Shown one piece after another: positions 13,469 to 39,851 of a DNA stretch of 64,000 nt; the stretch's first letter is position 1, and every line of letters begins with the position of its first letter. The position numbers and the translations under genes were made by a program. Source of the DNA: a virus; the IMG/VR virus record IMGVR_UViG_3300044846_004119, positions 1 to 64,000 of that record; one strand, given 5' to 3'. Under the pieces are notes generated by a model. The model did no database searches and had not been told where the DNA came from. It was given only the letters and a program-made list of their open reading frames with translations.

Positions 13469-16400
13469 ATGACGAGTCTTGTAATAACTAGTTTGAGTGG
13501 GGTTGGCCCTTTTACCGTAACATTATGCGATATAACTAACACGTATTGTTATATTGTTGCGACTAATGTAACAACCACTCCATTACTAGTTAATATACCA
13601 ATACAGTTAACCAATGTTCAACAAATATTGGTTAATGTTACCGATTCCTATAATTGCGTTGATTTACAATTATATAGTTGCCCTGAACCAACACCAACAT
13701 CAACAATAACCCCAACACCAACACAAACCTTAGGGGGATGTAATTGTATTACATTTACAAACTCAACACTGTTTAACCTTAATTTTGGGTTAGCCGAATG
13801 TAACGGAATTATATTATCGTCAGTAATAAATCCTGGTGTAACTTTGTATTATTGTGGACAATCCCCATATGGGGATGTAGGTGTCGGTATTAATGTTGGT
13901 AATATTTGTATTAATACATGTTATCCACCGACAAATACTCCTACACCAACAAATACACCAACATCTGTAACACCAACACCTACACCAACTAACACACCTA
14001 CACAAACTGAAACTCCAACAAATACGCCAACTAACACCCAAACGCCAACTAACACGCCAACTTCAACTGAAACTCCAACTAATACCCCAACTAATACACC
14101 TACACCAACACCAACTGAAACTCCGACTGAAACTCCGACTGAAACTCCGACAAATACACCAACTGAAACACCAACACCAACTGAAACACCAACACCAACT
14201 GAAACACCATCCCAAACACCTACACAAACACCGACTAACACACCAACAAACACACCAACACCAGGATTATCACCAACCACAACCCCAACTAACACTCAAA
14301 CACCAACAAATACACCAACAAATACAGTAACACCAACTAACACTCCAACTCCAACCCAAACACCGACAAATACACCAACACCAGGATTATCACCAACCAC
14401 AACCCCAACTAACACTCAAACTCCAACCCAAACACCAACAAATACAGTAACACCAACTAACACTTCAAGTCCAACCCAAACACCGACAAATACACCAACA
14501 CCAGGATTATCACCAACCACAACCCCAACTAACACTCCAACACCAACTGAAACACCAACAAATACCCCAACGCCAACTGAAACGCCAACAAATACCCCAA
14601 CTGAAACGCCAACAAATACCCCAACTGAAACGCCAACTGAAACGCCAACTAACACTCCTACCCCAACAAACACACCAACGCCAGGATTATCACCAACCAC
14701 AACCCCAACTAACACTCCAACTCCAACCCAAACACCAACAAATACACCAACAAATACAGTAACACCAACTAACACTCCAACTCCAACCCAAACACCGACA
14801 AATACACCAACAAGTACACCGACGGTAACTCCGACAAATACTCCAACTAAAACTCCGACAAATACTCCTACCCCAACAAATACAGTAACACCAGGATTAT
14901 CACCAACCACAACCCCAACTAACACCCCAACACCTACATCAACCCAAACACCAACAAATACCCCAACCCAAACACCTACCAACACACCAACAAATACCCA
15001 AACTCCAACAAATACCACAACCCAAACACCTACCAACACGCCGACAAATACTCCAACTCAAACACCAACACCAGGATTATCACCAACCACAACCTCAACT
15101 AACACTCCAACACCAACTGAAACTCCAACTAAAACGCCGACAAATACTCCAACAAGTACTCCAACTGAAACTCCAACTAACACACCTACACAAACTCCAA
15201 CAAATACAGTAACACCAACAAATACAGTAACACCAACAAATACTCCTACGACAACAAATACAGTAACACCAACAAATACTGTAACCCCAACAAATACAGT
15301 AACACCAACTAAAACTCCGACAAATACACCAACTAAAACACCAACTAAAACCCCAACTAAAACTCCAACCCAAACTCCAACACCAACTAAAACTCCAACC
15401 CAAACCCAAACTCCAACCCAAACTCCAACTCCTACATCAACGTATATTCCGTCTTGGGACTGTAATGGTATTTATTGTTTTGACCCAGGTGATGGTACAG
15501 GATATTTCTCTACATTTGAAGAGTGTGACAGTATATGTAACACTTATGATTGTGTCGAGGGTAATTGTGAACAAAATTTCACTGGTGAGGGAGAATATGT
15601 TGGTATAATTGAGTGTTTAACTTTTTGTTTACCAACACCAACTCCAACCCAAACACCAACTAATACTCCAACAAATACTCCAACGCCAACTGAAACACCA
15701 ACTAATACTCCAACAAATACTCCAACGCCAACTCAAACACCAACGACAACTGAAACGCCAACCCAAACGCCAACCCAAACGCCAACTAACACTTCAACAC
15801 CAACTAACACTCCAACACCAACTGAAACGCCAACCCAAACGCCAACTAACACTTCAACACCAACTAACACTCCAACACCAACTGAAACACCAACTAATAC
15901 TCCAACAAATACTCCAACGCCAACCCAAACACCAACTAACACTCCAACGCCAACTAACACTCCAACACCAACTGAAACGCCAACCCAAACACCAACAAAC
16001 ACTCCAACACCAACTAATACTCCAACACCAACTGAAACTCCAACCCAAACACCAACAAATACCCCAACACCAACTGAAACGCCAACAAATACCCCAACAC
16101 CAACTGAAACGCCAACAAATACTCCAACTGAAACACCAACTGAAACGCCAACAAATACTCCAACTGAAACACCAACTAACACTCCAACCCAAACTAACAC
16201 ACCAAGTCCAACTGAAACTCCAACAAATACTCCAACTGAAACACCAACAAATACTCCTACCCCAACTGAAACTCCAACAAATACCCCAACTGAAACTCCA
16301 ACAAATACTCCAACTGAAACTCCAACAAATACGCCCACCCCAACTGAAACTCCAACAAATACCCCAACTGAAACTCCAACAAATACTCCAACTGAAACTC

Positions 16401-18733
16401 CGACCCAAACTCCGACCCAAACACCAACTGAAACTCCGACAAATACTCCAACTGAAACTCCAACAAATACGCCCACACCAACTAACACGCCAACACCAAC
16501 AGTTACGCCAACACCAACTAACACTCCAACACCAACTGAAACGCCAACAAATACCCCAACTGAAACACCAACAAATACTCCAACTGAAACACCAACAAAT
16601 ACTCCAACTGAAACGCCAACAAATACTCCAACTGAAACTCCAACAAATACTCCAACTGAAACCCCAACAAATACTCCAACAAATACTCCAACTGAAACTC
16701 CAACTAACACTCCAACCCCAACTGAAACTCCAACAAATACTCCAACTGAAACGCCAACTAACACTCCAACCCAAACTGAAACACCAACAAATACGCCAAC
16801 AAATACTCCAACGCCAACTAACACTCCAACCCCAACTGAAACACCAACAAATACCCCAACTAACACTCCAACACCAACTCAAACGCCTACACCAACTAAC
16901 ACTCCGACACCAACAGTCACACTTGGGTTAACTCCAACACCAACAAATACTTCAACCCCGACAAATACTATAACGCCAACAAATACCCCTACAACAACAA
17001 ATACTCCAACCCAAACACCGACTAACACCCCAACCCCAACAAATACACCAACCCAAACATCAACTAACACCCCAACCCAAACTAACACTCCGACAAATAC
17101 TCCAACTCAAACTCCAACAAATACTCCAACAAATACTCTAACACCAACACCAACAAATACACCAACAAATACAACAACAAATACACCAACAAATACTGTG
17201 ACTCCAACCCAAACACCAACTAACACTCCAACCCAAACACCAACTAACACTCCAACACCAACAAATACACCAACTCAAACACCGACAAATACTCCGACAA
17301 ATACTGTAACTAACACCCAAACACCAACAAATACACCAACAAATACACCAACTCAAACACCAACTGAAACTCCAACAAATACTCCGACAAATACTGTAAC
17401 TAACACCCAAACACCAACAAATACGCCAACAAATACTGTGACTAACACCCCAACTGAAACTCCAACAAATACGCCAACCCAAACTAACACTCCAACTAAT
17501 ACTGTAACACCAACAGTTACACCAACATCACCGCCAGAATTACCAATTTATACTGGTGAAACTGTTTGTGATATTCCATATAACATTAACACAGGGATTA
17601 CAGGTTCTTGGCAGATTACAGTTCAGTTAGGTTCGTATACGGGAACCGTTGCCTGTACTTTTAATGCATATCAGGTACCAGATAAGTTCCAAGTTTTTTG
17701 GGATGGGAATTTGGTTATTGATACAGGGTTTAGGGGTAACGCCATTTTTAATTCACAATTAAATGCCTTAGGATATCCAAGTGTTGTAGGTACAGGTTTT
17801 GTTACTGCTTCTTGGACTAAATTAACAGCGTTTCCTGATTTCGCAACAGTTGTGGTTACCGCTCCTATTGATTCAACTAGATTTTATTTTAAATTGGGTT
17901 GTCCGGCTGTAACACCAACACCAACGGTAACCCCAACCCACACACCAGCACCAACAAATACCCCAACTAATACTCCAACACCTACACCTTTACCGATAAT
18001 ACCACTATGTTCTGTATTAATTAATGGGGGTACTGACGTATCCGCCTATTTTCCATCATCAAATACTAACGTATTGTTAGGTAATTCTTTTACTTTTTCC
18101 CCAGATATTGCACATACAACAACTAAACTATGGTTGTATGATGGGACAATTCTAGAATATGACATAACATTAAGTCCTTGGTCGGCAACGTTCAACAGAA
18201 CTATCGAATACCCTTTAGGTGTTAATTTAGGGAATGGTTTAGGCTCCATTACCAACACTGAGTTAATCTCAACAGACGATACAGTAACACCTAATCAAAT
18301 AATTGTTTTAGATATTACCACAAGTACCGCAGTCTCAACTGTAATTGGAACACTAGGGGTTGGTAGGTATGTTTCGGGTGATATTTTATTAACAACTACA
18401 AATAAAATATTAGTTACTAATGAAGGTAATGATGGAGTATTCCTTAGTCAATATAGTTATCCGTCAGGTACTTTTGAAGTTGAGGTCGATATTACGTCAA
18501 CCACAAGCCAACCGTATGGTTTATTTATTGATAGTGGTAATATATATGTTTGTAACAGTGGTGGTGAAATATATAATGTTGATGTTAACTTCCCATACAC
18601 ACAAACATTATCTAATATCTCAGGATTATTTGTTGGAGGAGCATCTCAAGTACCAAGTTGTTGTGATACTAACCTAAACTTACCACCAACTCCTACACCA
18701 ACAAATACTCCAACACCTACACCAATCGCATAA
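13469..18733 (+). CDS. Mucin-like Thr-Pro repeat protein with interspersed Cys-containing globular domains (probable virion surface fibre)
   Basis: 1754 aa; about 1150 aa of [11 protein letters not shown] repeats; N-terminal Cys-rich domains, a central Cys doublet, a beta-sandwich-like domain and a C-terminal propeller-like domain. Confidence 0.9.
13925..17530 (+). repeat. Thr-Pro coding microsatellite tracts (13925-15440 and 15631-17530)
   Basis: ACN-CCN dinucleotide-codon repeats with AAY/GAA/CAA spacers; the block ccaggattatcaccaaccacaac occurs at 14261, 14381, 14501, 14681, 14891 and 15071. Confidence 0.95.
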
Positions 18734-18821: not shown

Positions 18822-20069
18822 ATGAAAATATTTGTTCAGATAGCCTCTTATCGTGACCCCCAACTTATCCCAACAATCAAATCAATGTTGGAGAATGCCA
18901 AAAACCCAAAAAATTTAGTAATCGGAATTTGTCGTCAATACCATCCTGAGGATGGGTTTGATGATTTATCAGAATATGCTAAAGATAAACGATTTAGAGT
19001 TATTGATGTTTTATATTCTGACGCTAAAGGAGTTTGTTGGGCAAGAAACCAAGTTCAACAATTATATAAAGGCGAAGAATATACCCTACAAATAGACTCC
19101 CATATGAGATTTGAAAAATATTGGGACGACACCTTAATCAAAATGGTTAAACAACTTCAAAAGAAAGGATTTGAGAAACCTTTATTAACAGGATACGTAT
19201 CTTCATTTGACCCGGACAATGACCCGGAAGGCAGAGTTACGGTACCTTGGAGAATGGCTTTTGATAGATTCATTCCTGAAGGGGCGGTATTCTTTTTACC
19301 TGAAACAATTCCTGGATGGGAAACCCTTAAAGAACCGGTTACTTCACGATTTTATTCTGCCCATATGGCATTCACTCTTGGTCAATTTAGTGTTGAAGTT
19401 CAACACGACCCTGAATTTTATTTTCACGGAGAAGAGATATCAATCGCCGTTAGAGCATTCACTCACGGATATGATTTATTCCACCCACATAAAGTTGTGA
19501 TTTGGCACGAATACACCCGTAAAGGTAGAACAAAACAATGGGACGACGATAAAGAGTGGGGAAAGAAAAATGAATTATCCCATAAAAAAAATCGTCAACT
19601 ATTTGGTATGGATGGTGAAGAGGTAACAATGGATTTTAGTTATTATGGATTTGGAACCGAAAGAACTTTAAAAGACTATGAGATTTATTCAGGTCTTAGA
19701 TTTTCAAATAGAGCCGCACAACAATATACTTTAGATAAACATTACGCACCTAATCCAACAATTTATGAAACTGAAGAAGAATGGTTAGCAAGTTACGCCA
19801 CTATTTTTAAACATTGTATTGATGTTGGTTTTACTCAAGTTCCAGAAAATGACTATGATTTTTGGGCGGTAATTTTTGAGGGTAGTAATGGTAATGAGTT
19901 ATATAGGAAAGATGCGGATAAGGAAGAAATTAATCGATTAAAATCTGACAAAGATGGATATTGTAAAATATGGAGAGATTTTCAAACAACTGAGAAACCA
20001 AATAAATGGATTGTATGGCCACATAGTGAGTCTAAAGGTTGGTGTGAGATAATAACAGGTAACTTATAA
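18822..20069 (+). CDS. GT60-family (Skp1 hydroxyproline/polypeptide alpha-GlcNAc transferase-like, Pfam GlcNAc type) glycosyltransferase
   Basis: IFVQIASYRDP, KGVCWARN..Q.LY.GEEYTLQIDSHMRF...WD, FYSAHMAF, HDPEFYFHGEEISIAVRAFTHGYDLFHP...IWHEY. Confidence 0.9.
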   Translation: MKIFVQIASYRDPQLIPTIKSMLENAKNPKNLVIGICRQYHPEDGFDDLSEYAKDKRFRVIDVLYSDAKGVCWARNQVQQLYKGEEYTLQIDSHMRFEKYWDDTLIKMVKQLQKKGFEKPLLTGYVSSFDPDNDPEGRVTVPWRMAFDRFIPEGAVFFLPETIPGWETLKEPVTSRFYSAHMAFTLGQFSVEVQHDPEFYFHGEEISIAVRAFTHGYDLFHPHKVVIWHEYTRKGRTKQWDDDKEWGKKNELSHKKNRQLFGMDGEEVTMDFSYYGFGTERTLKDYEIYSGLRFSNRAAQQYTLDKHYAPNPTIYETEEEWLASYATIFKHCIDVGFTQVPENDYDFWAVIFEGSNGNELYRKDADKEEINRLKSDKDGYCKIWRDFQTTEKPNKWIVWPHSESKGWCEIITGNL

Positions 20070-25669: not shown

Positions 25670-26332
25670 ATGGATTTCTACATTAAGAAAAACGCAACCT
25701 TACCTGTGATTAAACTCCAAGTGGTGAAGGATGGTCGAAGTGACTATGATAGCTTCATGAAAACTATTGAGTTATCGGCAATATTCTTTTCAATGGTTGA
25801 TTCTGATACAGGTATTCCAAAAATTAGTTCAAGACCGGCAGGATTTGTTGAGAAAACATTCTTAGACCCCAACGCCGAACCAGAATATTACATTTATTAT
25901 CAATTTACCTCAAAAGACACTAATAGAGTTGGTTCATATGAAGGACAATTTATGTTAAGAAACGATGATGGTGTTTTAATATTGCCAATACGTGAAAAAT
26001 TAAACATCAACATCCAAGACTCATTTATTGCGGATGACTTAGTTTATGATAGTTGTTATGTTTCAGAATTCCCTTGTTGTGTTAACGGACCTTTTGTTTC
26101 GACAACAACAACTTCTCCATGTCCAAGTTGTCCAACATGTCCTGAACCAACACCGACACCTCAACCAACAACAACTACTACGACATATAACCCAACAACA
26201 ACAACCACACATTCGCCAACTCCAACACCAACATTAACACCAACGCCAGAACCCGAAATTTTAATCAATCCTATCTTAGTTGGTGAAGACCAATATTTGA
26301 GTGTTGGGGATAATGAATATTTAGAATATTAA
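25670..26332 (+). CDS. Structural protein with BppU-like N-terminal domain and Thr/Pro-rich tail
   Basis: FYIKKNATLP.I.LQV...YYQF...DT...G.YEGQF; then TTTTSPCPSCPTCPEPTPTPQPTTTTTT. Confidence 0.6.
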   Translation: MDFYIKKNATLPVIKLQVVKDGRSDYDSFMKTIELSAIFFSMVDSDTGIPKISSRPAGFVEKTFLDPNAEPEYYIYYQFTSKDTNRVGSYEGQFMLRNDDGVLILPIREKLNINIQDSFIADDLVYDSCYVSEFPCCVNGPFVSTTTTSPCPSCPTCPEPTPTPQPTTTTTTYNPTTTTTHSPTPTPTLTPTPEPEILINPILVGEDQYLSVGDNEYLEY

Positions 26333-26379
26333 TAATCCATCTTTAAAAATTAAACTATTTATAAAATAAAAAACAAATT

Positions 26380-28653
26380 ATGGCATTAACAGGAAAAACA
26401 ATTGGACAACTAACATATCTTTCGGGAGTAACAACGGATACATTATTTCCCGTAGAATTGAGTGGTGATACATACCATATAGCATATTCTGCGTTCACTA
26501 ATTCAAACTATAACGAAGGAACTTACGATAATTTATATTCATTTGCCACAGGTGGCACACTAACCGCTGGAAGTTATTATTTAATGACCAACTTCCAAAC
26601 TTGTTATGACCAACCAAACTACGATAATACCAAAAACCCTATTACTACGGGTAACTATAAAACAGGAACAACAGAGCCAATTTTATTATTGGCAATATCT
26701 ACAACAGGATTTTCTCCTACCGTATATTCAACATTATACCCTAATGATAAAATAACATACGACATAACTTGGAATACCACCGAAATCACGAGTAGTCCTG
26801 CAAAAGGTAGAATCACTGAAAGAATTGATAACTTTAATAATAGAACTGATTATGATAACAGAAGTATTTTATTTAAAAGATATAACGGATATTCATATTA
26901 CGAAAATCTACCATTAAGTGGTCTTGTTGGGATAAGTGGTTTAACAGGAACAACTGCCGTGTTATATGGTAACACGGGTACAACATTTACCTCAAATTTC
27001 TCAACTGGTGACATTGTTTCAGTGCGAAATTTAGACCCTTCATTTTTTGAAGTTATATCTGTTGTAAGTAATTCTTTAGCAATTATATCAGGTGTAACAA
27101 TAAGTGTAACTACTGACTCACCATATTATTTTGGAATTGATGATGGTATAATGAGTTATTACCAACCTAATATAAGACAAGACCAAGTTTTTGAATATAC
27201 AACATTTGGTGATGCCATTGATGAAAGTGGAGCGGTTAATAATTATATTGGTAACTATTCTAACCTACATTTAGAATTTGGTACTGGAAATTTTTTACTC
27301 GCAAATAATGTATTCTTAATAGGTTCAATTAGAAACAACACCATTGGTAACGGTTCATATAATAACACATTTAATGATGATTGTGATAATAATCAAATAG
27401 GTGATGGATTTTATAATAACTCAACGAACAATGATTTTGACGGTAATATAATTGGTGAGAGTTTCAATAATAATTACATTACCTCTAATTTTGACAATAA
27501 TAGAATTGGTAGTGATTTTGACAATAACATTTTAATTGGTGGTTCTTTTTATAGAAACAATATTGGGAACGACTTTAACAATAATGTTTGGACTAATAGT
27601 GACTTTCAAAATAATGAAATAGGAAATCAGTTTAATGATAATAAAATTTATGGTGACTTCTATAATAATGATATTGGTAATGGGTATAATAATAATGAAA
27701 GTTACTCAACTTATAATCGTAATTTAATTGGGAACGGGTATAATGGTAATACGGTATATTCACAATTTTACGAAAATAATATTGAACACGTTTTTCAAAA
27801 TAATACTATTGGAACCAATTTAACTATTGGGACAGATAATTTTAGGGCTAATAGAGTTGGAAACAATTTTGAAGATAATATAATTAAAGTTAATTTTCAA
27901 TACAACAACATTTTAAATAATTTTAATAATAATACCATATATTGGGAGTTTAGAAAAAATTCAATATTAAATGATTTCAACCTAAACACAATTGGTGGAG
28001 TTGATAATTTAGGTCTTCTTTTTGAGAACAACCAAATTATGAATAATTTTAAAGGTAACGACATTCAAGGGGATTTTTGGAGTAACCAAATTAAAACAGA
28101 TTTTAAGGGTAATGATATATTTGAGGAGTTTGGATATAATAATATAGGATTTGGGTGTTCACCTAATTCTTTTAGTGGTGTAACAACACATAACAATATT
28201 GGTGATAATTTTTCATTTAATACTTGTTATGGTTCATTTTCGTACAACACAATAGGAACTGATTTTAACTCTAATGAGGTACAAGATGGATTTGGTTTTG
28301 GTGGGTCGTCTTCTCAAGGAAATAGAATTGGAAATGATTTTACAGATAATACCATCGGTGAATATTTCTACAATAATACTATTCCTGATAACTTTTACAA
28401 TAACACAATTGGTGATTCATTCCAATGGAATATTGTTAATACTGAAGTTAATAATGTTTGTTTAAGTACAGGTATGTTATATAACACAACAACAGTTAAT
28501 GTATTCAAAAATAAAAATGAAGATTATAGATTATCGTATTACGATGAAGTGGATGTTCTAACAATAGAAACATTAACTGAAGCTCCTTGTTTAGGTGGGT
28601 TAAACGTATTAGACATACCAGAAAATGATTTGAATTTCGGATTAATATTATAA
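26380..28653 (+). CDS. Asn-rich beta-solenoid fibre/spike protein
   Basis: 757 aa; long run of ~9-aa x-I-G-x-x-F-x-N-N repeats. Confidence 0.7.
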   Translation: MALTGKTIGQLTYLSGVTTDTLFPVELSGDTYHIAYSAFTNSNYNEGTYDNLYSFATGGTLTAGSYYLMTNFQTCYDQPNYDNTKNPITTGNYKTGTTEPILLLAISTTGFSPTVYSTLYPNDKITYDITWNTTEITSSPAKGRITERIDNFNNRTDYDNRSILFKRYNGYSYYENLPLSGLVGISGLTGTTAVLYGNTGTTFTSNFSTGDIVSVRNLDPSFFEVISVVSNSLAIISGVTISVTTDSPYYFGIDDGIMSYYQPNIRQDQVFEYTTFGDAIDESGAVNNYIGNYSNLHLEFGTGNFLLANNVFLIGSIRNNTIGNGSYNNTFNDDCDNNQIGDGFYNNSTNNDFDGNIIGESFNNNYITSNFDNNRIGSDFDNNILIGGSFYRNNIGNDFNNNVWTNSDFQNNEIGNQFNDNKIYGDFYNNDIGNGYNNNESYSTYNRNLIGNGYNGNTVYSQFYENNIEHVFQNNTIGTNLTIGTDNFRANRVGNNFEDNIIKVNFQYNNILNNFNNNTIYWEFRKNSILNDFNLNTIGGVDNLGLLFENNQIMNNFKGNDIQGDFWSNQIKTDFKGNDIFEEFGYNNIGFGCSPNSFSGVTTHNNIGDNFSFNTCYGSFSYNTIGTDFNSNEVQDGFGFGGSSSQGNRIGNDFTDNTIGEYFYNNTIPDNFYNNTIGDSFQWNIVNTEVNNVCLSTGMLYNTTTVNVFKNKNEDYRLSYYDEVDVLTIETLTEAPCLGGLNVLDIPENDLNFGLIL

Positions 28654-28680
28654 ATAAATAAAATAAAAAAAAACAAAAAA

Positions 28681-29757
28681 ATGATACAAGGAATTAGAAT
28701 AACAAGTACAAATTTATCAGGACTAACGGCAAACGTTACTTTTTTACCCACAACTGGTGGAACTATTAATTTAGGGCCTGAAGTAATACCATTTGATAAT
28801 ATTTCGGATTATCCTTACGGAACATACGAATTAGACGTTCCATTATATGATAGAATATATGAAATAGTTGTACCGGCACCATTAACAGGTCAGAGTGCAT
28901 ATACTGAAACAGTAAGAACTGTTACCGTTGACGGAGGAGTACAACCATTCTCAGGAGCGGTATTATCTGAAGTGTGGGGAACATATACAACAGAATATAT
29001 TACAAATGAAGGAATACCATCAACTGATATTGTTTTAGCTGAAGGTATTTGTTCTGATGACGTTGACGCAGCATACTTACCCGGAAATATCGGTGGATGG
29101 CCAACAAGTATTAATTCTTTCTTAGGACCATTTATGTCCGGTGGATTGGCAGGTTATCCGTTTGTTGGTAGTGTCGGATTTGGAGCGTTTTCAAGTCACG
29201 TAGCTACAACTCTTGACGGAACCTTGTTCGTTACAAGTATGCCACACATTGGTGTTACTGAAGATGGACGTTCAGGTAGAATGTTAAGAAGAGGTAAAGC
29301 AAATAGTTTAACTGATAATACCTGTGGTGCCGTTGCAGGGGCAATTGACCAAGTTGTAAATGTATTAACTAATGCTCCAAATATAGAAAATCCACCATTT
29401 GACAATGGTAATTATTCTTTTTGGAAATTAACTGATATTTTATGGCCGCACAAATATTCATTATCAAATTTTACAGGTACTAGTGAAGAAGTATATAATA
29501 AACAAATGATTTTAGCAACTGAAATAATTAGAGATTCTGCTTATGATTATATTATTGCAAATTTACCTGCAGCAACCGAAGCAAACACTGAGAATGACGT
29601 ATATTTTTTAAGTGGTATTTTTATTAATTCTGATGTTAGTTCCGGTACAACACAATTTGAATCATATGTTGTTGTTGATAAAGTTATGAAATATGTGTTT
29701 GATGACCAGTGGTATGATATAACTGTTGATTATATGGCTGGATTACCTATTGACTAA
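28681..29757 (+). CDS. LCIB/theta-type carbonic anhydrase domain fused to an N-terminal structural-type domain
   Basis: ICSDD (C124, D126), GGLAGYPFVGSVGFGAFSSH, PHIG (H189), G..G...RRG, TCGA (C215): the LCIB-family motif order with all three Zn ligands. Confidence 0.8.
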   Translation: MIQGIRITSTNLSGLTANVTFLPTTGGTINLGPEVIPFDNISDYPYGTYELDVPLYDRIYEIVVPAPLTGQSAYTETVRTVTVDGGVQPFSGAVLSEVWGTYTTEYITNEGIPSTDIVLAEGICSDDVDAAYLPGNIGGWPTSINSFLGPFMSGGLAGYPFVGSVGFGAFSSHVATTLDGTLFVTSMPHIGVTEDGRSGRMLRRGKANSLTDNTCGAVAGAIDQVVNVLTNAPNIENPPFDNGNYSFWKLTDILWPHKYSLSNFTGTSEEVYNKQMILATEIIRDSAYDYIIANLPAATEANTENDVYFLSGIFINSDVSSGTTQFESYVVVDKVMKYVFDDQWYDITVDYMAGLPID

Positions 29758-29777
29758 ATAAATTAAAAAATAAAAAA

Positions 29778-30992
29778 ATGGCAACAAAATATATTGTTAA
29801 TGATTTAACAGGACAAACCATAACGGGTGACCTAACAATCAATGGAAATTTAAATGTTACAGGAACAACAAGTGGTTTATCGACTTACAAAGCACTATTA
29901 ACTCAATTAGGTTCCCAAACAGGTACCACCTTAGGTGGTTTTGGTGGTCTTAATGATGGTTTAATTATAGGTGAAACCTATACAATAACTGATTATGTTA
30001 GTGATGATGATTTTAGTAATATTGCCGATGTAACAAGTGGAGGAATTCTTAATATTGATTATGTTGGTACCGCAACAAATGGTTCTGGAGTCTTTAACGG
30101 TCTTACAGGAACAACAAGTGGTTTGGGTAGTGGGGCATCTTTTGATGTTTATATATGTGGAACGACATATAATTCAATTACCGTTGTAACAAGTGGAGTT
30201 GATTATGTTGTGGGAGACACAATAACAATATTAGGAACTGAACTTAGTGGTAGTACGCCTACAAATGATATAACAATTACAGTTACTGGTTTTAATCCTA
30301 ATCAAACGGGTTGTGTTTTTATTGCAACAGGAGAAATACCAACAAATTGGAGTAACGGTTCTACTTTAGTATCTAGCGGTAATTTAGTGGTAAAAGTATT
30401 AGAAAACAATTTGGGATTTGACATTGAGTGGGATTATGGTATTTTTGACGAAGGAATTTATTTTGGAGTTAATTCAACCACAGGACCATTGTATAATACT
30501 TTTAATAGAAACACAACATTTGTTTTAGGTGGTGGAAATCCAAATCCGTATATCGGTCCTAACCTATTAGAAACTTTTATAGGTCCTATAAGTATATCCG
30601 AGAAAGATGACGCGATTATTGTTGCGGTGTTTGATACGGAGATACTTGAATCAGTTCCTGATAGTTTGTATTATTTTCCTATTGAGATTCAAATTCAACA
30701 AGATACCGACACAACACCAATTGTAATAAGTGGAACTGTAGAAACATCTTTTCCTATTACTCTTACTAGTATTGATTTGCGTTGTAATGGAAATTACATC
30801 CAATCACTTTACGGAGATGGTACAGTAAATGATATGTCAGAACTTATAACTTACTTAAACTCTGAATCAGATATGAGTTATTTAGGTGTATATTCTGATG
30901 ACGGTGATGGAGTTCTTTTAGAAATGTCAACCAATTTAGTAAATCAATTCTGTTCTAGTGGAACATTAACGTTTGAGGTATTCAACGATTAA
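29778..30992 (+). CDS. Probable tail-fibre/structural protein
   Basis: GDLTINGNLNVTG start, G/T-rich, GSGASFDV...SGVDYVVGDTITI module common in phage fibres. Confidence 0.55.
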   Translation: MATKYIVNDLTGQTITGDLTINGNLNVTGTTSGLSTYKALLTQLGSQTGTTLGGFGGLNDGLIIGETYTITDYVSDDDFSNIADVTSGGILNIDYVGTATNGSGVFNGLTGTTSGLGSGASFDVYICGTTYNSITVVTSGVDYVVGDTITILGTELSGSTPTNDITITVTGFNPNQTGCVFIATGEIPTNWSNGSTLVSSGNLVVKVLENNLGFDIEWDYGIFDEGIYFGVNSTTGPLYNTFNRNTTFVLGGGNPNPYIGPNLLETFIGPISISEKDDAIIVAVFDTEILESVPDSLYYFPIEIQIQQDTDTTPIVISGTVETSFPITLTSIDLRCNGNYIQSLYGDGTVNDMSELITYLNSESDMSYLGVYSDDGDGVLLEMSTNLVNQFCSSGTLTFEVFND

Positions 30993-32199: not shown

Positions 32200-34986
32200 G
32201 TGATAAGTCAAGAAGAAATTAAGTCGTTTCTTGAAGGGAGCGACCCTGAAGAACATATTGTGGCCATAGAGTTTGATTATGTCACAGATTCTATATACAA
32301 AATTAAAGAAATACCTGGTCAAGGTAAAATAATCAAAAAAGATACTTTCACGGCATTTGCTTGGGTTGGTGACTTAAGAGGTTTGAATTTTTATTCATCT
32401 TCTAAGGACCAACAGAAAGCGGCAATGACCAAATATGGTATTGTTATAGATAAGTTAGAAACTGAAGGTAATGAAAGATTAGAACAAGGACTTAAGTTCA
32501 TGGTCAAATCTTTAAAAGGATACCGAACATTAATACAATTTTTTAGGGACGGTGGGTTAGACCCATGGTCAGAACGAGCTAAAAATTTAATCTTAGTTCT
32601 TCCTCCTGTAGAACAATATCTAATCTCAAGGGAGAAGAGGTTATTCAAAGGGTACGAGGAATATAATGACATCACGAGACTCGGATTCGACTTAGAGACG
32701 ACCTCTCTTGAACCTAAAGACGGTCGTATATTCATGATAGGAATCAAAACCAATAAAGGATTCCAAAGAGTTATTGAATGTGCTGACGAAGACCAAGAAA
32801 GAAGAGGTATTGTAGAATTTTTTAGAATTATAGATGAATTAAAACCATCAATTATTGGTGGATATAACTCTTTTAACTTTGACTGGTTTTGGATATTCGA
32901 AAGATGTAAGGCTCTAAATTTAGACATTAAAAAGATATCAAAATCACTAAACCCATCAAGGCCAATCTCTCAAAAGGATGGTATGTTAAAACTTGCTAAC
33001 GAGGTTGAGAGATTTGTTCAAACAGGGTTATGGGGGTATAACATCATCGACATCATTCACTCTGTCCGTAGAGCTCAAGCAATTAACTCAAGTATTAAAT
33101 CAGCGGGTTTGAAATATATAACTCAATACATTAACGCTGAAGCGCCTGACCGTGTATACATCCCCCATGAAGAAATTGGTTCTATGTATGCCAATAAAGA
33201 AGAGTTTTGGTTAAACGTAACTAATGGGAAATACAAGAGGGCGGATAAACCTGAGTTTAATAATTTAGACACTCGTTTTCCTGGCACCTACATTAAAGTT
33301 ACAGGTGATAATATAGTTGAGCGTTATCTTGACGATGACTTAGAGGAAACGTTAACTGTCGATGATGAGTTCAATCAGGGAACGTTTCTATTAGCATCAA
33401 TGGTACCTACAACATATGAAAGAGTATCAACAATGGGTACCGCAACATTATGGAAAATGTTGATGTTAGCTTGGTCTCATAAATACAAATTAGCAATCCC
33501 AAAAAAACAAGAAAAGACAGAATTTGTTGGTGGTTTATCAAGACTACTTAAAGTAGGGTATTCAAGAAACGTATTAAAACTTGACTACTCTTCTCTATAT
33601 CCATCAATTCAGTTAGTACATGACGTATTCCCTGAATGTGATGTTAGAGGGGCGATGAAAGGAATGTTATCTTATTTCCGTAATGCTCGTATTATGTATA
33701 AAAACTTGGCGTCAGAATTTTATGATGTGGATAAAAAGAAATCATTATCTTATGACCGTAAACAATTACCGATTAAGATTTTTATTAACTCAATGTTTGG
33801 CGCGTTATCCGCACCTCAAGTATTTGCGTGGGGTGATATGTATATGGGGGAACAAATTACCTGTACAGGTAGACAATATCTTCGTCAGATGATTAAGTTT
33901 TTTATTAAAAAAGGTTATACTCCACTTGTAATGGATACTGACGGTGTCAACTTTGCTAAACCTGAGGGGTGGGAAAATAGACGTTATATTGGTAAAGGTC
34001 TTAACTGGAAAGTTAAAGAAGGTAAGGAATACACTGGTGATGATTCGGACGTTGCAGAATTTAACGATTTATTCATGAGAGGTGAAATGGCTTTAGATAC
34101 TGATGGTACTTGGCCGTCATGTATTAACTTGGCTCGTAAGAACTATGCTGTTATGGAGTCAAGCGGTAAAGTTAAATTAACTGGTAATACAATTAAATCT
34201 AAAAAATTACCACTATACATTGAGGACTTTTTAGATAAAGGGGTTAAACAATTACTTGAGGGTAAAGGTCAAGAATTTGTTGAGTGGTACTACGAGTATG
34301 TTCAGAAAATATTTAATTTAGAAATTCCTTTAATGAAAATTGCCCAAAGAGCTAAAGTTAAATTATCTTTAGATGATTATAAAAAACGTTGTACTCAAAA
34401 AACCAAAGCCGGCTCATTAATGAGTAGAATGGCTCATATGGAGTTAGCCATCAAACATAATCTAAACATTCAGTTAGGTGATGTTATTTATTATGTAAAT
34501 AACGGATTAAGAGCTTCTCATGGTGATGTTCAAAAAATTACTAAAGCTAACTATACTAAAAAAGAATTAGATTTATTTTCCCAAGAAAATGGTAAAGAAC
34601 CTGAGAATAAAAGTACCTCAATAATACAACTTAATTGTTATATGTTAGAACCAACTGAGATTGAGAATAATCCAAACATGAAAGGTGAATATAACATACA
34701 AAGAGCCATAACAACCTTTAATAAAAGAATTGCTCCCCTATTAGTAGTATTCAAAGAAGAAGTTAGAAACGGATTAATTGTAAACAATCCTGAAGACCGT
34801 GGTTTTTTTACTAAGGGACAATGTGAATTAATTAATGGAGTACCATTTAAAGAGGGTGACCAAGATACCTTAGAGGAAGTGTTAACTTTATCTGATGGTG
34901 AAGTTAAATATTGGGATAAAAGAGGAATGAGCCCTGATTATATATATGAATTAGCTTCTGAAGGATGGGAAAAGTTTATAAATTAA
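32200..34986 (+). CDS. polB: Family B DNA polymerase with 3'-5' exonuclease
   Basis: GFDLETT (ExoI), GYNSFNFD (ExoII), DYSSLYPSI (motif A), KIFINSMFG (motif B), MDTDG (motif C), RKNYA; GTG start. Confidence 0.95.
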   Translation: MISQEEIKSFLEGSDPEEHIVAIEFDYVTDSIYKIKEIPGQGKIIKKDTFTAFAWVGDLRGLNFYSSSKDQQKAAMTKYGIVIDKLETEGNERLEQGLKFMVKSLKGYRTLIQFFRDGGLDPWSERAKNLILVLPPVEQYLISREKRLFKGYEEYNDITRLGFDLETTSLEPKDGRIFMIGIKTNKGFQRVIECADEDQERRGIVEFFRIIDELKPSIIGGYNSFNFDWFWIFERCKALNLDIKKISKSLNPSRPISQKDGMLKLANEVERFVQTGLWGYNIIDIIHSVRRAQAINSSIKSAGLKYITQYINAEAPDRVYIPHEEIGSMYANKEEFWLNVTNGKYKRADKPEFNNLDTRFPGTYIKVTGDNIVERYLDDDLEETLTVDDEFNQGTFLLASMVPTTYERVSTMGTATLWKMLMLAWSHKYKLAIPKKQEKTEFVGGLSRLLKVGYSRNVLKLDYSSLYPSIQLVHDVFPECDVRGAMKGMLSYFRNARIMYKNLASEFYDVDKKKSLSYDRKQLPIKIFINSMFGALSAPQVFAWGDMYMGEQITCTGRQYLRQMIKFFIKKGYTPLVMDTDGVNFAKPEGWENRRYIGKGLNWKVKEGKEYTGDDSDVAEFNDLFMRGEMALDTDGTWPSCINLARKNYAVMESSGKVKLTGNTIKSKKLPLYIEDFLDKGVKQLLEGKGQEFVEWYYEYVQKIFNLEIPLMKIAQRAKVKLSLDDYKKRCTQKTKAGSLMSRMAHMELAIKHNLNIQLGDVIYYVNNGLRASHGDVQKITKANYTKKELDLFSQENGKEPENKSTSIIQLNCYMLEPTEIENNPNMKGEYNIQRAITTFNKRIAPLLVVFKEEVRNGLIVNNPEDRGFFTKGQCELINGVPFKEGDQDTLEEVLTLSDGEVKYWDKRGMSPDYIYELASEGWEKFIN

Positions 34987-38081: not shown

Positions 38082-39851
38082 TTATCTGCGATTGTTTATT
38101 CTATTCATCACTTCTTCAATAAAGTCGGCTTTATCTAAATTGTCACCCATAACGGTTTCAAATATATTTTTCTTCTTTATTAAAATGTCATAAATTGCTC
38201 CCTCAATAGTATTTTCAAATATTGGGTAATAAACTGATACATTAGATTTTTGACCGTATCTGTACGCTCTATCTTCCGCTTGTGTGTGGTCTGATGGAAC
38301 AAAAGATAAATCATTCATGATTACGGCCTCAGCGGCGGTTAAGGTTAACCCAACACCTGCGGCTTTTAAGTTACCAACAAAAACTGTAATCTTTTCATTA
38401 TCCTGAAATTGGTCAACTGCGTGTTGTCTCATAGATTTAGAGGTTGACCCATCTAATCTAACCGCCTGTTTACCAAAATGGTCGGCAATTTTATTTAATG
38501 TATTTGTGAAATTAGTAAAAATAATAACCTTTTTTCCTTGGTCAATTATATTCTGAACTAATTCAATCGTATCGTTAATTTTTTCTTCCGCAATGACTTG
38601 TCTAACTTTCATTAACTTACTAAATTGTACCGTTAACGATGAAGATTCGTCTGTTTTATTTTCATACCAATCATAGTACTCTCCCATTAAGCCTTCATAT
38701 AATTTAGATTTAAGTCTTAGGTAGACTGGCGATATTATTTTGTCAGGTAAATCAAGTACCTCAGTTTTTAAACGTCGTAATACTTGTCTTGAGGTTCGGT
38801 CTCTTAATTCCTCTAAGTTAGATGCCCCCGTAACATTCCAAACTTTTCTATTTCCCGCTTTAAATTGGTAACCTTGACAATACCTAATGGCATATGCCAT
38901 CCAATTCTGAGCTACGGGACTCTCAATGAGTGATAACAAGTTAAAATAATTCATTGGTCTTGATGTCATTGGTGTTCCCGTTAACAACCAAAGTTTATCA
39001 ACACTTTTAACAAAACTATTAACTAATTTAGTTCTTTGTGCTTGACCGTTTTGTAAATAATGGGCCTCATCAATAATGATTATACCAAAATTACTTTTAT
39101 ATATTTCAGATTTTTCTTTATCTTTTAAATCGTAAAAATTTTTAAGAATATCGTAATTAACAATTACAAAATCGTGTTCTTGGGAGAAGTTTTTACCTTC
39201 GGCAATATAAACACTCCTATCTGTGTAGTTTTCAATCTCTCTTAGCCAATTTATTTTTAAAGAAGCGGGACAAATAATTAATATTTTCTTAACACCTGTT
39301 TCTAAAGCGGCAATAATGGTGGAAGTTGTTTTACCTAAACCCATATCATCTGCGAGAATAAATCTTTTAGCCCCGGCAAGTTTCTCAATGGCAATTTTTT
39401 GATGTTCTAATGGAGGTCTGTGAGAGTACTTTGAATAATCCACCTCAACATTTTTAATTGTGTGTGTCTTAATTAAAGCTCCTTTAGGTAACCAAAACTC
39501 GTGTATAGTTTCCCCCGATAACACTTTTCCCCAAACATGATAGGCTTTCTCTTTCTCAACCAATAACTTCTCAACCCAAACTTGTTCAGGTATTGTAGTT
39601 AATAATTTTTCGTCAGCAATTTTTTTGGCAAAGTAAGGGTCAAGGTCAACCCATTTTTTTCCAACTTTAGGTGTTACATCGTAATAATTAATAATATAAT
39701 CAGATTGGGCTCTTGTGGGATAAAATTTCTTATTAGATTCTTTTTGAGTTTTTAATTTTAGGATATAGTTATTTGCACCTGAATAAGTTTCAAGTAACTC
39801 TAATGCTCTTCTCTCTAATAGAGGTTTGTTATTTTCTATATTATTTTCCAA
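38082..39851 (-). CDS. SNF2-family (HARP/SMARCAL1-like) helicase
   Basis: ILADDMGLGKT, IICPASLKINW, IIDEAHY, LLTGTP, GVGLTL, QAEDRAYRYGQ. Confidence 0.92.
   Translation of the reverse strand: MENNIENNKPLLERRALELLETYSGANNYILKLKTQKESNKKFYPTRAQSDYIINYYDVTPKVGKKWVDLDPYFAKKIADEKLLTTIPEQVWVEKLLVEKEKAYHVWGKVLSGETIHEFWLPKGALIKTHTIKNVEVDYSKYSHRPPLEHQKIAIEKLAGAKRFILADDMGLGKTTSTIIAALETGVKKILIICPASLKINWLREIENYTDRSVYIAEGKNFSQEHDFVIVNYDILKNFYDLKDKEKSEIYKSNFGIIIIDEAHYLQNGQAQRTKLVNSFVKSVDKLWLLTGTPMTSRPMNYFNLLSLIESPVAQNWMAYAIRYCQGYQFKAGNRKVWNVTGASNLEELRDRTSRQVLRRLKTEVLDLPDKIISPVYLRLKSKLYEGLMGEYYDWYENKTDESSSLTVQFSKLMKVRQVIAEEKINDTIELVQNIIDQGKKVIIFTNFTNTLNKIADHFGKQAVRLDGSTSKSMRQHAVDQFQDNEKITVFVGNLKAAGVGLTLTAAEAVIMNDLSFVPSDHTQAEDRAYRYGQKSNVSVYYPIFENTIEGAIYDILIKKKNIFETVMGDNLDKADFIEEVMNRINNRR

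What the first reader, a model, noticed from the sequence alone, without database searches (positions are those of the whole stretch)
28681..29757. Theta/LCIB-type carbonic anhydrase embedded among virion fibre genes
Seen: C124-S-D126, GGLAGYPF.G..GFGA..SH, PH189IG and TC215GA in the order and spacing I recognise from algal LCIB/diatom theta-CA. The ~70-aa N-terminal segment (ITSTNLSGLTANVTFLPTTGGTINLG) looks like a structural docking domain, and the gene lies between two fibre-like genes. Established: LCIB proteins bind Zn through Cys-His-Cys and belong to algal CO2-concentrating mechanisms. Inference: a phage-borne, possibly virion-displayed CA or repurposed Zn fold. I know of no described case but cannot verify novelty.
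Basis: partly seen in the sequence, partly recalled or inferred. Interest (0 to 1): 0.85.

Follow-up and report, generated by a model that had tools for sequence, protein, structure and literature searches.

The report
Phage carbonic anhydrase on adaptor domain
An uncultured large tailed phage encodes a complete algal-type (LCIB/theta) zinc carbonic anhydrase joined to a small adaptor domain that related phages put on many other proteins, so the enzyme may ride on the virus particle, though neither this nor its activity has been shown.

Summary
ORF 28681-29757 (+, 358 aa) hits Pfam LCIB_C_CA at E 3e-29 (102 bits, cut-off 25). Its model (pLDDT 90.9) matches solved LCIB structures best (6kfs, PtLCIB4, TM about 0.81).

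Alignment to PtLCIB4 maps its Zn-site and mutated residues onto C124, S125, D126, H173, H189 and C215. All complete viral copies keep the catalytic positions.

Residues 1-66 form a separate Ig-like beta-sandwich. It heads many unrelated proteins of related phages (83-910 aa), often before a Pro/Thr linker.

At least 138 IMG/VR loci encode LCIB relatives. The viral copies form one well-supported clade, separate from the Bacteroidota genome copies. In two other phage lineages the gene lies inside the structural module, beside the tail sheath or after the major head protein. In this window it lies between a glycosyltransferase island and the replication genes. The 'fibre' nature of its neighbours is unverified.

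The host is probably Bacteroidota.

Best reading: a late-expressed, probably virion-mounted, active carbonic anhydrase. Enzyme activity and virion location are both inferred. The main rival is a cytoplasmic metabolic gene.

I found no description in the searched literature, GenBank phage records or BFVD. This scan reached the same reading earlier on other genomes.

The parts
28681..29757 (+). Two-domain gene (358 aa plus stop): N-terminal adaptor domain plus LCIB/theta-type carbonic anhydrase domain
   Evidence: ORF. Pfam PF18599 at E 3e-29. More than 100 clusters of 78-99% identical proteins of 355-362 aa in metagenomes. dN/dS about 0.2.
28681..28878 (+). Residues 1-66: Ig/FnIII-like six-strand beta-sandwich, the shared N-terminal adaptor module
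   Evidence: AF2 strands 3-7, 16-23, 29-35, 38-42, 47-53 and 58-64, pLDDT 83.5. The same module sits at the N-terminus of unrelated proteins of 83-910 aa. Only generic sandwich matches, best Z 6.0.
28879..28947 (+). Residues 67-89: connecting segment with one short helix (71-79); related proteins carry Pro/Thr linkers here
   Evidence: Secondary structure. PT linkers follow the module in P0184, P0188, P0196 and P0260.
28948..29754 (+). Residues 90-358: LCIB_C_CA domain (beta-CA-like fold)
   Evidence: Foldseek: 6kfs E 5e-16, TM 0.81; PtLCIB4 TM 0.80-0.82; CrLCIB 0.73; ordinary beta-CAs only about 1e-4. Profile against PDB: PtLCIB4 at 7e-38 over the whole domain.
29050..29058 (+). C124-S125-D126: first Zn ligand, Ser at the PtLCIB4 residue-47 position, and the Asp next to the first ligand
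   Evidence: The PtLCIB4 S47R mutant sequence reads C-R-D where the wild type reads C-S-D, opposite these columns. C124 and D126 are kept in 62 of 62 complete viral copies.
29197..29199 (+). H173, equivalent of PtLCIB4 His88
   Evidence: The H88A mutant sequence has Ala opposite this column. Kept in 66 of 66 viral copies.
29245..29247 (+). H189, second Zn ligand (PtLCIB4 His102)
   Evidence: Alignment and residue counting from H88. Kept in 66 of 66.
29287..29289 (+). R203 of the RRG motif, an invariant Arg shared with PtLCIB4 and 6kfs
29323..29325 (+). C215, third Zn ligand (PtLCIB4 Cys126)
   Evidence: Kept in 66 of 66.
26356..26362 (+). TATTTAT motif 24 nt before the upstream gene; probable promoter of the unit 26380-30992 that includes the LCIB gene
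   Evidence: The motif lies within -60..-1 of 42 of 171 genes, against 9.3 +/- 2.9 in shuffles. It also precedes the sheath and tube genes. The LCIB gene has none of its own and starts 27 nt after the upstream stop.
26380..28653 (+). Upstream neighbour (757 aa, 17% Asn, repetitive). An optional cassette present in only part of the clade
   Evidence: No Pfam or PHROG match at significance. Cluster c7 is present in 20 loci and absent from the simpler gene order.
29778..30992 (+). Downstream neighbour (404 aa). Its C-terminal ~85 aa recur as a C-terminal extension of an LCIB protein in another phage
   Evidence: BLASTP 33% identity, E 8e-8, against L054 LCIB-399. Weaker match to P0122. No family hit.
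25670..26332 (+). Conserved upstream partner (220 aa: globular N-part, Pro/Thr linker, short C-terminal peptide) with its own TATTTAT at -21
   Evidence: Cluster c3 directly precedes LCIB in the simplest gene order c4-c3-LCIB-PolB. Motif.

Best explanation
The gene encodes a zinc carbonic anhydrase of the LCIB/theta type, a structural subgroup of beta-CAs. Its active site is complete and resembles the constitutively active diatom enzyme PtLCIB4. The enzyme domain is carried on a 66-residue Ig-like N-terminal adaptor. It belongs to a phage-specific branch of the family. That branch has been moved between at least three lineages of tailed phages and repeatedly joined to lineage-specific anchor modules. 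The most likely working model has three steps. First, the gene is transcribed with the TATTTAT-class (probably late) genes. Second, the adaptor fixes the protein to a virion component. Third, the enzyme interconverts CO2 and bicarbonate plus a proton at or in the host cell envelope at infection. Shown here: family membership, fold, intact ligands, purifying selection, modular adaptor, and structural-module position in two other lineages. Inferred: Zn binding, catalysis, timing of expression, virion attachment, and the benefit to the phage. My sub-probabilities are: genuine LCIB-family fold with intact site 0.95; catalytically active 0.6-0.7; virion-associated about 0.5.
For: Family and fold: Pfam PF18599 at 102 bits. 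AF2 pLDDT 90.9. The best PDB matches are all LCIB proteins, with TM up to 0.82. A profile of the phage proteins hits PtLCIB4 at 7e-38. Active site: C124, H189 and C215 match PtLCIB4 C46, H102 and C126. S125 matches S47, D126 matches D48 and H173 matches H88, mapped through the mutant sequences in PDB. These residues plus R203, N316 and D318 are invariant in every viral copy that covers them: 62 of 62 for C124, D126 and D127 (four ORFs are cut at contig ends), 66 of 66 for the rest. dN/dS is 0.19 for the enzyme domain and 0.24 for the adaptor. PtLCIB3 and PtLCIB4 are reported as constitutively active (PMC9614477). Modularity: the adaptor heads unrelated proteins, often before PT linkers, and also occurs alone as proteins of 86-87 aa. 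In a sister phage the slot just downstream of the same long (1332-1351-aa) gene holds a 691-aa adaptor protein rather than the 802-aa gene plus LCIB. In lineage B an LCIB protein carries the first 61 aa of the neighbouring non-LCIB gene at 81-87% identity. Other LCIBs carry the C-terminal module of this window's downstream gene, or are embedded in a 776-aa protein. Structural context: lineage B has LCIB two genes upstream of the tail sheath, followed by tube and baseplate hub. Lineage C has portal, major head protein, LCIB, then a virion structural protein. Expression class: the gene starts 27 nt after a gene headed by TATTTAT, the motif that also precedes the sheath and tube genes. There is no signal peptide or membrane segment by eye, so export other than on the particle is unlikely (sequence).
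Against: No PHROG or Pfam structural family matches the protein, its adaptor, or any adaptor-bearing protein. The adaptor fold is a generic sandwich, Z at most 6. In this window and its clade the conserved neighbours are a glycosyltransferase and the DNA polymerase, not head or tail genes. L054 likewise lies between a carbamoyltransferase and a polymerase. This 177-kb record holds only one adaptor-bearing gene. Chlamydomonas LCIB keeps all its ligands yet has no measured activity in vitro (PMC9614477). There are no expression, proteome or biochemical data. No clear benefit of a virion-borne carbonic anhydrase is known.
Confidence: 0.5

Rival explanations
1. Cytoplasmic auxiliary metabolic gene. 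The enzyme stays in the infected cell and speeds CO2/bicarbonate equilibration. This would feed bicarbonate-dependent steps (carbamoyl phosphate, purine, fatty-acid and anaplerotic carboxylations) during replication of a roughly 300-kb genome. The N-terminal domain would serve another purpose, such as assembly into a complex or localisation.
For: About 14% of sampled genomes of the Flavobacterium phylum carry a single-domain LCIB_C_CA gene (28 of 201), so the likely host phylum uses this family. In the window clade the gene abuts replication genes (PolB, helicase) and sugar-modifying enzymes. The intact active site and purifying selection fit any enzymatic role. Established knowledge, from memory: E. 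coli needs its beta-CA Can to grow in air.
Against: This reading does not explain the fusions to exchangeable anchor modules in several lineages. It also does not explain the position inside head and tail modules in lineages B and C. No carbamoyltransferase or ATP-grasp carboxylase was found in this 177-kb record. The viral clade sits on a long stem apart from the Bacteroidota genes, so this is not a recent host capture.
Confidence: 0.27
2. Repurposed zinc fold. The LCIB domain no longer acts as an enzyme. It serves as a stable Zn-stabilised binding or structural knob on a virion appendage, comparable to the inactive carbonic-anhydrase-like attachment protein D8 of vaccinia virus (from memory).
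For: The domain is shuffled like a receptor-binding module, with variable anchors and variable cassettes around it. Chlamydomonas LCIB shows that intact ligands do not guarantee activity.
Against: Beyond the three ligands, D126, D127, H173, R203, N316 and D318 are invariant down to about 35% identity. A purely structural Zn site would not require that. Position 125 is Ser or Ala, not the Arg of the PtLCIB4 S47R mutant.
Confidence: 0.12
3. Cyanophage weapon against the host CO2-concentrating mechanism. If the host is a cyanobacterium, a cytosolic carbonic anhydrase would dissipate the accumulated bicarbonate pool and shut down carbon fixation.
For: The nearest cultured relatives by tail sheath and PolB include Microcystis phage Mel-JY01 (32% identity) and Nostoc, Anabaena and Dolichospermum phages.
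Against: These identities are low (22-32%), and Salinibacter phages score equally well. Gene starts lack Shine-Dalgarno sequences and have A at -3 in 65% of cases. The motif TAnnTTTG is enriched upstream of genes. Both are Bacteroidota-like traits (established knowledge, from memory). The cellular LCIB homologues recovered were almost all Bacteroidota, though the search pattern may bias this. Mel-JY01 and all other GenBank phages lack the gene.
Confidence: 0.05
4. Same fold, different chemistry. The domain hydrates or hydrolyses another small molecule, as the beta-CA-derived COS and CS2 hydrolases do (from memory).
For: The viral clade is divergent: 102 bits against the Pfam model, compared with 256 bits for a Flavobacterium homologue. 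It sits on a long stem branch.
Against: All residues shared with active PtLCIB4 are kept. Nothing in the sequence points to another substrate.
Confidence: 0.04

Closest known systems
PtLCIB4 / PtLCIB3 of Phaeodactylum tricornutum (LCIB family, theta-type CA; PDB 5b5y)
   Same: Same Pfam family and fold (TM 0.80-0.82). Same Cys-His-Cys ligands, the Asp next to the first ligand, Ser at residue 47, His88 and the RRG arginine.
   Different: About 20% sequence identity. The phage protein has an added N-terminal Ig-like domain. It is encoded by a tailed phage whose host is probably a heterotroph, and it is not part of an algal CO2-concentrating mechanism. Activity is untested.
Chlamydomonas LCIB/LCIC (PDB 5k5w, 5b5x)
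   Same: Same family and fold (TM 0.68-0.73).
   Different: More distant (profile E about 1e-13). The algal proteins form a large hetero-complex around the pyrenoid and lack measurable activity in vitro (PMC9614477).
Single-domain LCIB_C_CA proteins of Bacteroidota (e.g. the 251-aa protein of Flavobacterium sp. SLB02, L128:3869-4624)
   Same: Same family. They occur in the probable host phylum: 28 of 201 sampled genomes and 341 matching stretches in the genome collection.
   Different: 30-36% identity. They fit the Pfam model much better (256 bits). They have no adaptor domain and form a clade separate from all viral copies. Their function is also uncharacterised.
Carbonic anhydrases annotated in giant viruses (Pandoravirus celtis, Harvfovirus) and in a temperate Nitrosospira phage
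   Same: Virus-encoded carbonic anhydrases exist.
   Different: The giant-virus BFVD entries (Pandoravirus celtis, Harvfovirus) match the model only weakly (E 4e-3 to 1e-2, TM under 0.45). The papers treat such genes as auxiliary metabolic or moron genes. None is reported as fused to a structural-type adaptor or placed in a head or tail module.
Vaccinia virus D8 envelope protein (from memory)
   Same: A carbonic-anhydrase-fold protein displayed on a virus particle.
   Different: D8 has an alpha-CA fold that has lost its zinc ligands, and it acts as a glycosaminoglycan-binding attachment protein. Here the fold is beta/LCIB and every catalytic residue is kept.
Modular phage appendage proteins with a conserved N-terminal anchor and exchangeable C-terminal domain, such as tail fibres and Ig-like decoration proteins like T4 Hoc (general knowledge)
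   Same: A short conserved N-terminal module, then a linker, then a highly variable C-terminal domain, in variable cassettes between relatives.
   Different: No sequence or specific structural match to any known anchor or decoration domain. The cargo here is a metabolic-type enzyme.

Membership tests
LCIB / theta-type carbonic anhydrase (Pfam PF18599 LCIB_C_CA) | Profile match above the curated threshold over most of the domain | tested here: met
   102.4 bits against a cut-off of 25, profile positions 11-218 of 223. 103.3 bits in the genome search.
LCIB / theta-type carbonic anhydrase (Pfam PF18599 LCIB_C_CA) | Zn ligand triad Cys-His-Cys (PtLCIB4 C46, H102, C126) in register | tested here: met
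   C124, H189 and C215 align to the PtLCIB4 residues. Numbering was checked through the S47R and H88A mutant sequences. Invariant in all complete viral copies.
LCIB / theta-type carbonic anhydrase (Pfam PF18599 LCIB_C_CA) | Second-shell residues of the active enzyme: Asp two residues after the first Cys, Ser (not Arg) between them, the His88 equivalent, and the conserved Arg of RRG | tested here: met
   D126, S125, H173 and R203.
LCIB / theta-type carbonic anhydrase (Pfam PF18599 LCIB_C_CA) | LCIB variant of the beta-CA fold | tested here: met
   AF2 pLDDT 90.9. The top eight Foldseek hits are all LCIB-family entries, E 5e-16 to 3e-8. Classical beta-CAs follow at about 1e-4.
LCIB / theta-type carbonic anhydrase (Pfam PF18599 LCIB_C_CA) | Bound zinc and CO2 hydration activity | not testable with these tools
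   Needs metal analysis and an enzyme assay of recombinant protein.
LCIB / theta-type carbonic anhydrase (Pfam PF18599 LCIB_C_CA) | Homo-oligomer (a dimer as the basic unit) | not tested
LCIB / theta-type carbonic anhydrase (Pfam PF18599 LCIB_C_CA) | Role in a photosynthetic CO2-concentrating mechanism | tested here: inconclusive
   The host is unknown. Translation and promoter signals and the cellular homologues point to heterotrophic Bacteroidota. The nearest cultured phages include cyanophages at low identity.
Classical beta-carbonic anhydrase (Pfam Pro_CA type) | C-x-D-x-R motif and H-x-x-C ligand pair | tested here: not met
   No Pro_CA hit at E up to 0.1. The sequence reads C124-S-D-D-V, and H189 and C215 are 26 residues apart. 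Only remote fold similarity, TM 0.25-0.5.
Phage virion (tail-fibre or decoration type) protein | Similarity to a known structural protein family | tested here: inconclusive
   No PHROG hit for the protein or for other adaptor-bearing proteins. The adaptor gives only generic sandwich matches, Z at most 6.
Phage virion (tail-fibre or decoration type) protein | Gene located in the morphogenesis module | tested here: inconclusive
   Not in this window, where the gene lies between a glycosyltransferase island and PolB/helicase. It does in lineage B (next to sheath, tube and hub) and lineage C (between the major head protein and a virion structural protein).
Phage virion (tail-fibre or decoration type) protein | Conserved N-terminal anchor with exchangeable distal domain | tested here: met
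Phage virion (tail-fibre or decoration type) protein | Presence in purified particles | not testable with these tools
   No cultured relative. No match in GenBank phages.

The most novel reading that the evidence does not exclude
A phage-specific branch of theta/LCIB carbonic anhydrases is a catalytically active component of the virion itself. It would be mounted through exchangeable anchor domains on heads or tails of several lineages of large aquatic phages. It would work outside the cytoplasm at the host surface, for instance by turning CO2 respired by a living cell into bicarbonate and protons next to the adsorbed particle. That could act as a local pH cue or an aid to envelope penetration. 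This would be the first inorganic-carbon enzyme known to be carried on a phage particle.
Probability: 0.3. Interest if true: 0.85.

Novelty: new variant of a known kind. Interest (0 to 1): 0.7.

Why it matters
LCIB/theta carbonic anhydrases are known as parts of algal and diatom CO2-concentrating mechanisms. Their bacterial relatives are uncharacterised. Here a whole phage-borne branch of the family appears, with at least 138 loci in IMG/VR and hundreds of protein clusters in metagenomes. Its catalytic site is strictly conserved, and its gene behaves like a swappable virion module.

If the enzyme is active and on the particle, it opens a new class of virion-associated enzymes. It would also link phage infection to local CO2, bicarbonate and pH chemistry. 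If the enzyme is cytoplasmic, it would be a widespread and so far overlooked auxiliary metabolic gene for inorganic carbon in phages of probable heterotrophs.

Either way the proteins are small and soluble-looking. They can be tested directly with standard carbonic anhydrase assays and by complementing an E. coli can-deletion strain.

Tried and rejected
- tblastn of the protein against 50,697 GenBank phage records: no match.
- BFVD fold search: no LCIB-like viral structure, only weak giant-virus beta-CAs.
- Literature searches found nothing on a phage LCIB. Terms tried: LCIB + phage; theta carbonic anhydrase + virus; LCIB + viral genome. The Jin et al. 2016 paper could not be retrieved. Ligand numbering was therefore derived from the PDB mutant sequences instead.
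- Fold searches of the adaptor alone gave only generic Ig/FnIII-like sandwiches. Hits included an usher middle domain and several type-IX-secretion C-terminal domains at Z 5-6. This is not discriminating, so no family is claimed.
- ESM Atlas feature searches of the adaptor and of the downstream gene gave no usable hit. The atlas fold library was not available.
- Type-IX secretion sorting domains (PF18962, PF13585) were not found in the 177-kb record.
- Bicarbonate-using enzymes were not found in the record: carbamoyltransferase PF02543 and ATP-grasp carboxylase PF02786.
- Search for longer fused forms carrying a named structural domain found only the 776-aa type, which has no other Pfam domain.
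- HMM search for further adaptor-bearing genes in this genome found only the LCIB gene itself.
- Complex prediction (planned: homodimer of the LCIB domain) was not available.
- The first attempts at search for related loci with broad alignments failed for lack of a conserved stretch.
- Helicase and tube/hub searches gave no host clue.
Full report
**What is in the sequence.** The ORF 28681..29757 (+) is real and encodes 358 aa.
- C124-S125-D126
- GGLAGYPF at 154-161, followed by GFGAFSSH ending in H173
- P188-H189-I190-G191
- T214-C215-G216-A217

Pfam LCIB_C_CA (PF18599) matches residues 103-334 at E 3e-29. The score is 102 bits against a cut-off of 25, over positions 11-218 of the 223-position profile. 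Sequence search of PDB finds only LCIB-family chains at significant E-values.

**Genome setting.** The window is the first 64 kb of a 177,135-bp IMG/VR virus record that CheckV rates about 60% complete. Close relatives lie on contigs up to 320 kb. The phage is contractile-tailed. Annotated genes include:
- tail sheath at 42463-45798
- tail tube at 46803-47291 and baseplate hub at 47417-48175
- family-B DNA polymerase at 32200-34986
- helicase at 38082-39851
- a large glycosyltransferase island in the first 25 kb

**Fold and active site.** An AlphaFold2 model built on 65 aligned sequences has mean pLDDT 90.9. Its best PDB matches by Foldseek are 6kfs (E 5e-16, TM 0.81), PtLCIB4 (TM 0.80-0.82) and Chlamydomonas LCIB/LCIC (TM 0.68-0.73). 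Classical beta-CAs follow only at E about 1e-4.

A profile of the phage-type domains aligns to PtLCIB4 along the whole domain at E 7e-38. PDB also holds the S47R and H88A mutants of PtLCIB4. Their sequences fix the register:

| PtLCIB4 | This protein | Role |
|---|---|---|
| C46 | C124 | Zn ligand |
| S47 | S125 | Ser, not the Arg of the S47R mutant |
| D48 | D126 | Asp next to the first ligand |
| H88 | H173 | conserved His |
| H102 | H189 | Zn ligand |
| C126 | C215 | Zn ligand |

That C46, H102 and C126 are the zinc ligands is from my memory of the LCIB structure paper, which I could not retrieve. The residue correspondence itself is a tool result.

In 66 distinct viral LCIB ORFs, C124, D126 and D127 are kept in 62 of 62 copies that cover them. 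H173, H189, R203, C215, N316 and D318 are kept in 66 of 66. Among 24 close relatives the median dN/dS is 0.19 for the enzyme domain and 0.24 for the N-terminal domain.

A review states that LCIB homologues are a beta-CA subgroup. It also states that Chlamydomonas LCIB has no quantified activity in vitro, and that PtLCIB3 and PtLCIB4 appear constitutively active (PMC9614477). The phage protein has the PtLCIB4-like residue set. Activity is therefore likely but not assured.

**The N-terminal domain.** An exhaustive HMMER search of 1.84 billion representatives gave 792 hits of two kinds. One kind covers residues about 88-355 (the LCIB domain). The other covers only residues about 2-80, always at the extreme N-terminus of proteins of 83-702 aa with unrelated remainders.

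Examples include a DUF5122 beta-propeller protein (P0196) and several 400-700-aa proteins of no known family. A Pro/Thr-rich linker often follows the module. The module also occurs on its own as 86-87-aa proteins and on 127-910-aa proteins in related phage loci.

Modelled alone (pLDDT 83.5) it is a six-strand Ig/FnIII-like sandwich. Structure searches give only generic sandwich matches, with best Z 6.0. I therefore call it an adaptor by behaviour, not by homology. In this 177-kb record the LCIB gene is the only one that carries it.

**Distribution and evolution.** IMG/VR holds at least 138 loci with an LCIB relative at 38-93% identity. A FastTree phylogeny of 136 domain sequences places every viral copy, plus 21 metagenome representatives, in one clade. 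That clade has support 99 and a stem length of 0.88. The 23 Bacteroidota genome sequences (support 99) and a large clade of mostly longer multi-domain proteins fall outside it. The tree is unrooted in effect and was built with the quick method, so donor and direction are not established.

Cellular homologues recovered from one genome per species were almost all Bacteroidota, at 30-36% identity. The search pattern may favour them. The family is present in 28 of 201 sampled genomes of that phylum. A Flavobacterium example is a 251-aa single-domain protein scoring 256 bits.

**Gene context.** I clustered the genes of 80 viral loci and found three contexts.

- **Lineage A (this window; adaptor + LCIB; 46-93% identity).** The simplest order is HtrL-like glycosyltransferase, then a 220-aa PT-linker protein, then LCIB, then PolB. 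The window's 757-aa and 404-aa neighbours are optional insertions found in part of the clade. In other members the gene follows a 1130-1351-aa protein with a C-terminal peptidase-like domain. In a sister phage the slot just downstream of the same long (1332-1351-aa) gene holds a 691-aa adaptor protein rather than the 802-aa gene plus LCIB.
- **Lineage B (LCIB of 308 or 374 aa).** The gene lies two genes upstream of the tail sheath, followed by tube and baseplate hub.
- **Lineage C (315 aa).** The gene lies between portal and major head protein on one side and a virion structural protein on the other.

Domain shuffling is frequent:
- A lineage-B LCIB carries the first 61 aa of the neighbouring non-LCIB gene at 81-87% identity.
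- L054 and P0122 carry, after the LCIB domain, the C-terminal module of this window's downstream gene (33% identity, E 8e-8).
- A 776-aa form has LCIB between two other parts.
- Some phages have two LCIB genes in tandem.

This is the behaviour expected of exchangeable virion appendage modules. It remains circumstantial.

**Expression signals and host.** TATTTAT lies within 60 nt upstream of 42 of 171 genes, against 9.3 +/- 2.9 in shuffles. These include the sheath, the tube, the 220-aa gene and the 757-aa gene. The LCIB gene has no copy of its own and starts 27 nt after the 757-aa gene, so co-transcription is likely.

Gene starts lack Shine-Dalgarno sequences: 8 of 171 have one, against 5.4 by chance. 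A occupies position -3 in 65% of genes. TAnnTTTG is enriched upstream (16 genes against 6.8 +/- 2.4). From memory, these are traits of Bacteroidota.

The nearest cultured phages by sheath and polymerase are a Microcystis phage (32%) and Salinibacter and Nostoc/Anabaena phages (22-31%). These are too distant to decide the host. A recent paper describes large freshwater phages with predicted Bacteroidota hosts and core glycosyltransferases ('moraphages'). It does not mention a carbonic anhydrase (PMC12619734). I did not test whether this phage belongs to that lineage.

**Interpretation.** I commit to the following reading at about 0.5. This is an active LCIB-type carbonic anhydrase that is expressed with the TATTTAT-class genes. 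It is fixed to the particle by its adaptor and acts on CO2/bicarbonate at or in the host envelope at infection.

The main rival, at about 0.27, is a cytoplasmic metabolic gene that supplies bicarbonate for biosynthesis. This fits the position next to replication genes in lineage A. It does not explain the anchor swapping or the head and tail positions in lineages B and C.

Less likely rivals are a non-catalytic binding knob (0.12), a cyanophage tool against the host CO2-concentrating mechanism (0.05), and altered chemistry (0.04).

**Novelty.** I found no phage LCIB in any of these sources:
- 50,697 GenBank phage records
- BFVD
- the searchable literature

The viral carbonic anhydrases I did find are weak BFVD matches in two giant viruses and genes that two papers report as auxiliary or moron genes.

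The scan's own records show the same gene family was noted and followed up on other genomes, with the same reading. My additions are:
- the single viral clade
- the structural-module positions in two further lineages
- the second kind of anchor swap
- the ligand mapping through the PDB mutants
- the host signals

Complex prediction, read mapping and the atlas fold library were unavailable.

Noticed in passing
window 13469-18733 (+): A 1754-aa ORF with no Pfam hit lies in a stretch of extreme strand skew (GC skew -0.63 to -0.70, AT skew +0.43 to +0.53, GC 42-43% against about 30% elsewhere). It is followed 88 nt later by a eukaryote-type GT60 GlcNAc transferase (PF11397, E 2e-70) at 18822-20069.
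   Followed up: partly
whole 177-kb record; in the window e.g. 13458, 25649, 26356, 39889, 42421, 48338, 50319: TATTTAT on the coding strand lies within 60 nt upstream of 42 of 171 genes (9.3 expected). It is probably a phage-specific (late?) promoter element. Total counts in the window are not above chance; only the placement is.
   Followed up: yes
whole 177-kb record: Gene starts lack Shine-Dalgarno sequences (8 of 171 against 5.4 by chance). Leaders are A-rich, with A at -3 in 65% and about 58% at -10 to -13. TAnnTTTG is enriched upstream (16 against 6.8). This is a Bacteroidota-like initiation pattern.
   Followed up: yes
window 25670-26332, C-terminal end (about 26260-26329); also P0192, P0260, L003:11991-12254: A short peptide, roughly NP-I-L-V-x-E-D-x-Y-L-S-V-G-D-N-E-Y-L, ends the 220-aa PT-linker protein. 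Similar peptides follow the adaptor domain or a PT linker in other proteins, and end the stand-alone 86-87-aa adaptor proteins. It may be a second docking element.
   Followed up: no
window 42463-45798: The tail sheath is unusually long (1111 aa). Only the last ~300 residues match the Pfam sheath domains. The nearest cultured relative is Microcystis phage Mel-JY01 (32% over 65%).
   Followed up: partly
L071, L081, L083 (e.g. L081:7581-8786 and 8790-9647): Some phages carry two diverged LCIB genes in tandem (about 401 and 285 aa). This recalls the paired LCIB/LCIC of Chlamydomonas.
   Followed up: no
L060:7662-8786 compared with L062:6869-7792: An LCIB protein has acquired the first 61 aa of the neighbouring 307-aa gene of sibling phages (81-87% identity), directly upstream of the tail sheath module.
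   Followed up: partly
L087 (1.6-kb contig of a 'bacterium' MAG) and L164 (Limnohabitans MAG contig): L087 carries a phage-type LCIB (46% identity) and is probably a phage fragment binned into a MAG. The L164 LCIB nests inside Saprospiraceae sequences in the tree and may be a mis-binned Bacteroidota contig.
   Followed up: no
L054:4589-7861: In one phage a 1090-aa NodU/Nol-like carbamoyltransferase lies directly upstream of the LCIB gene, and a DNA polymerase directly downstream. Carbamoyl phosphate synthesis needs bicarbonate. No such gene was found in this window's genome.
   Followed up: partly
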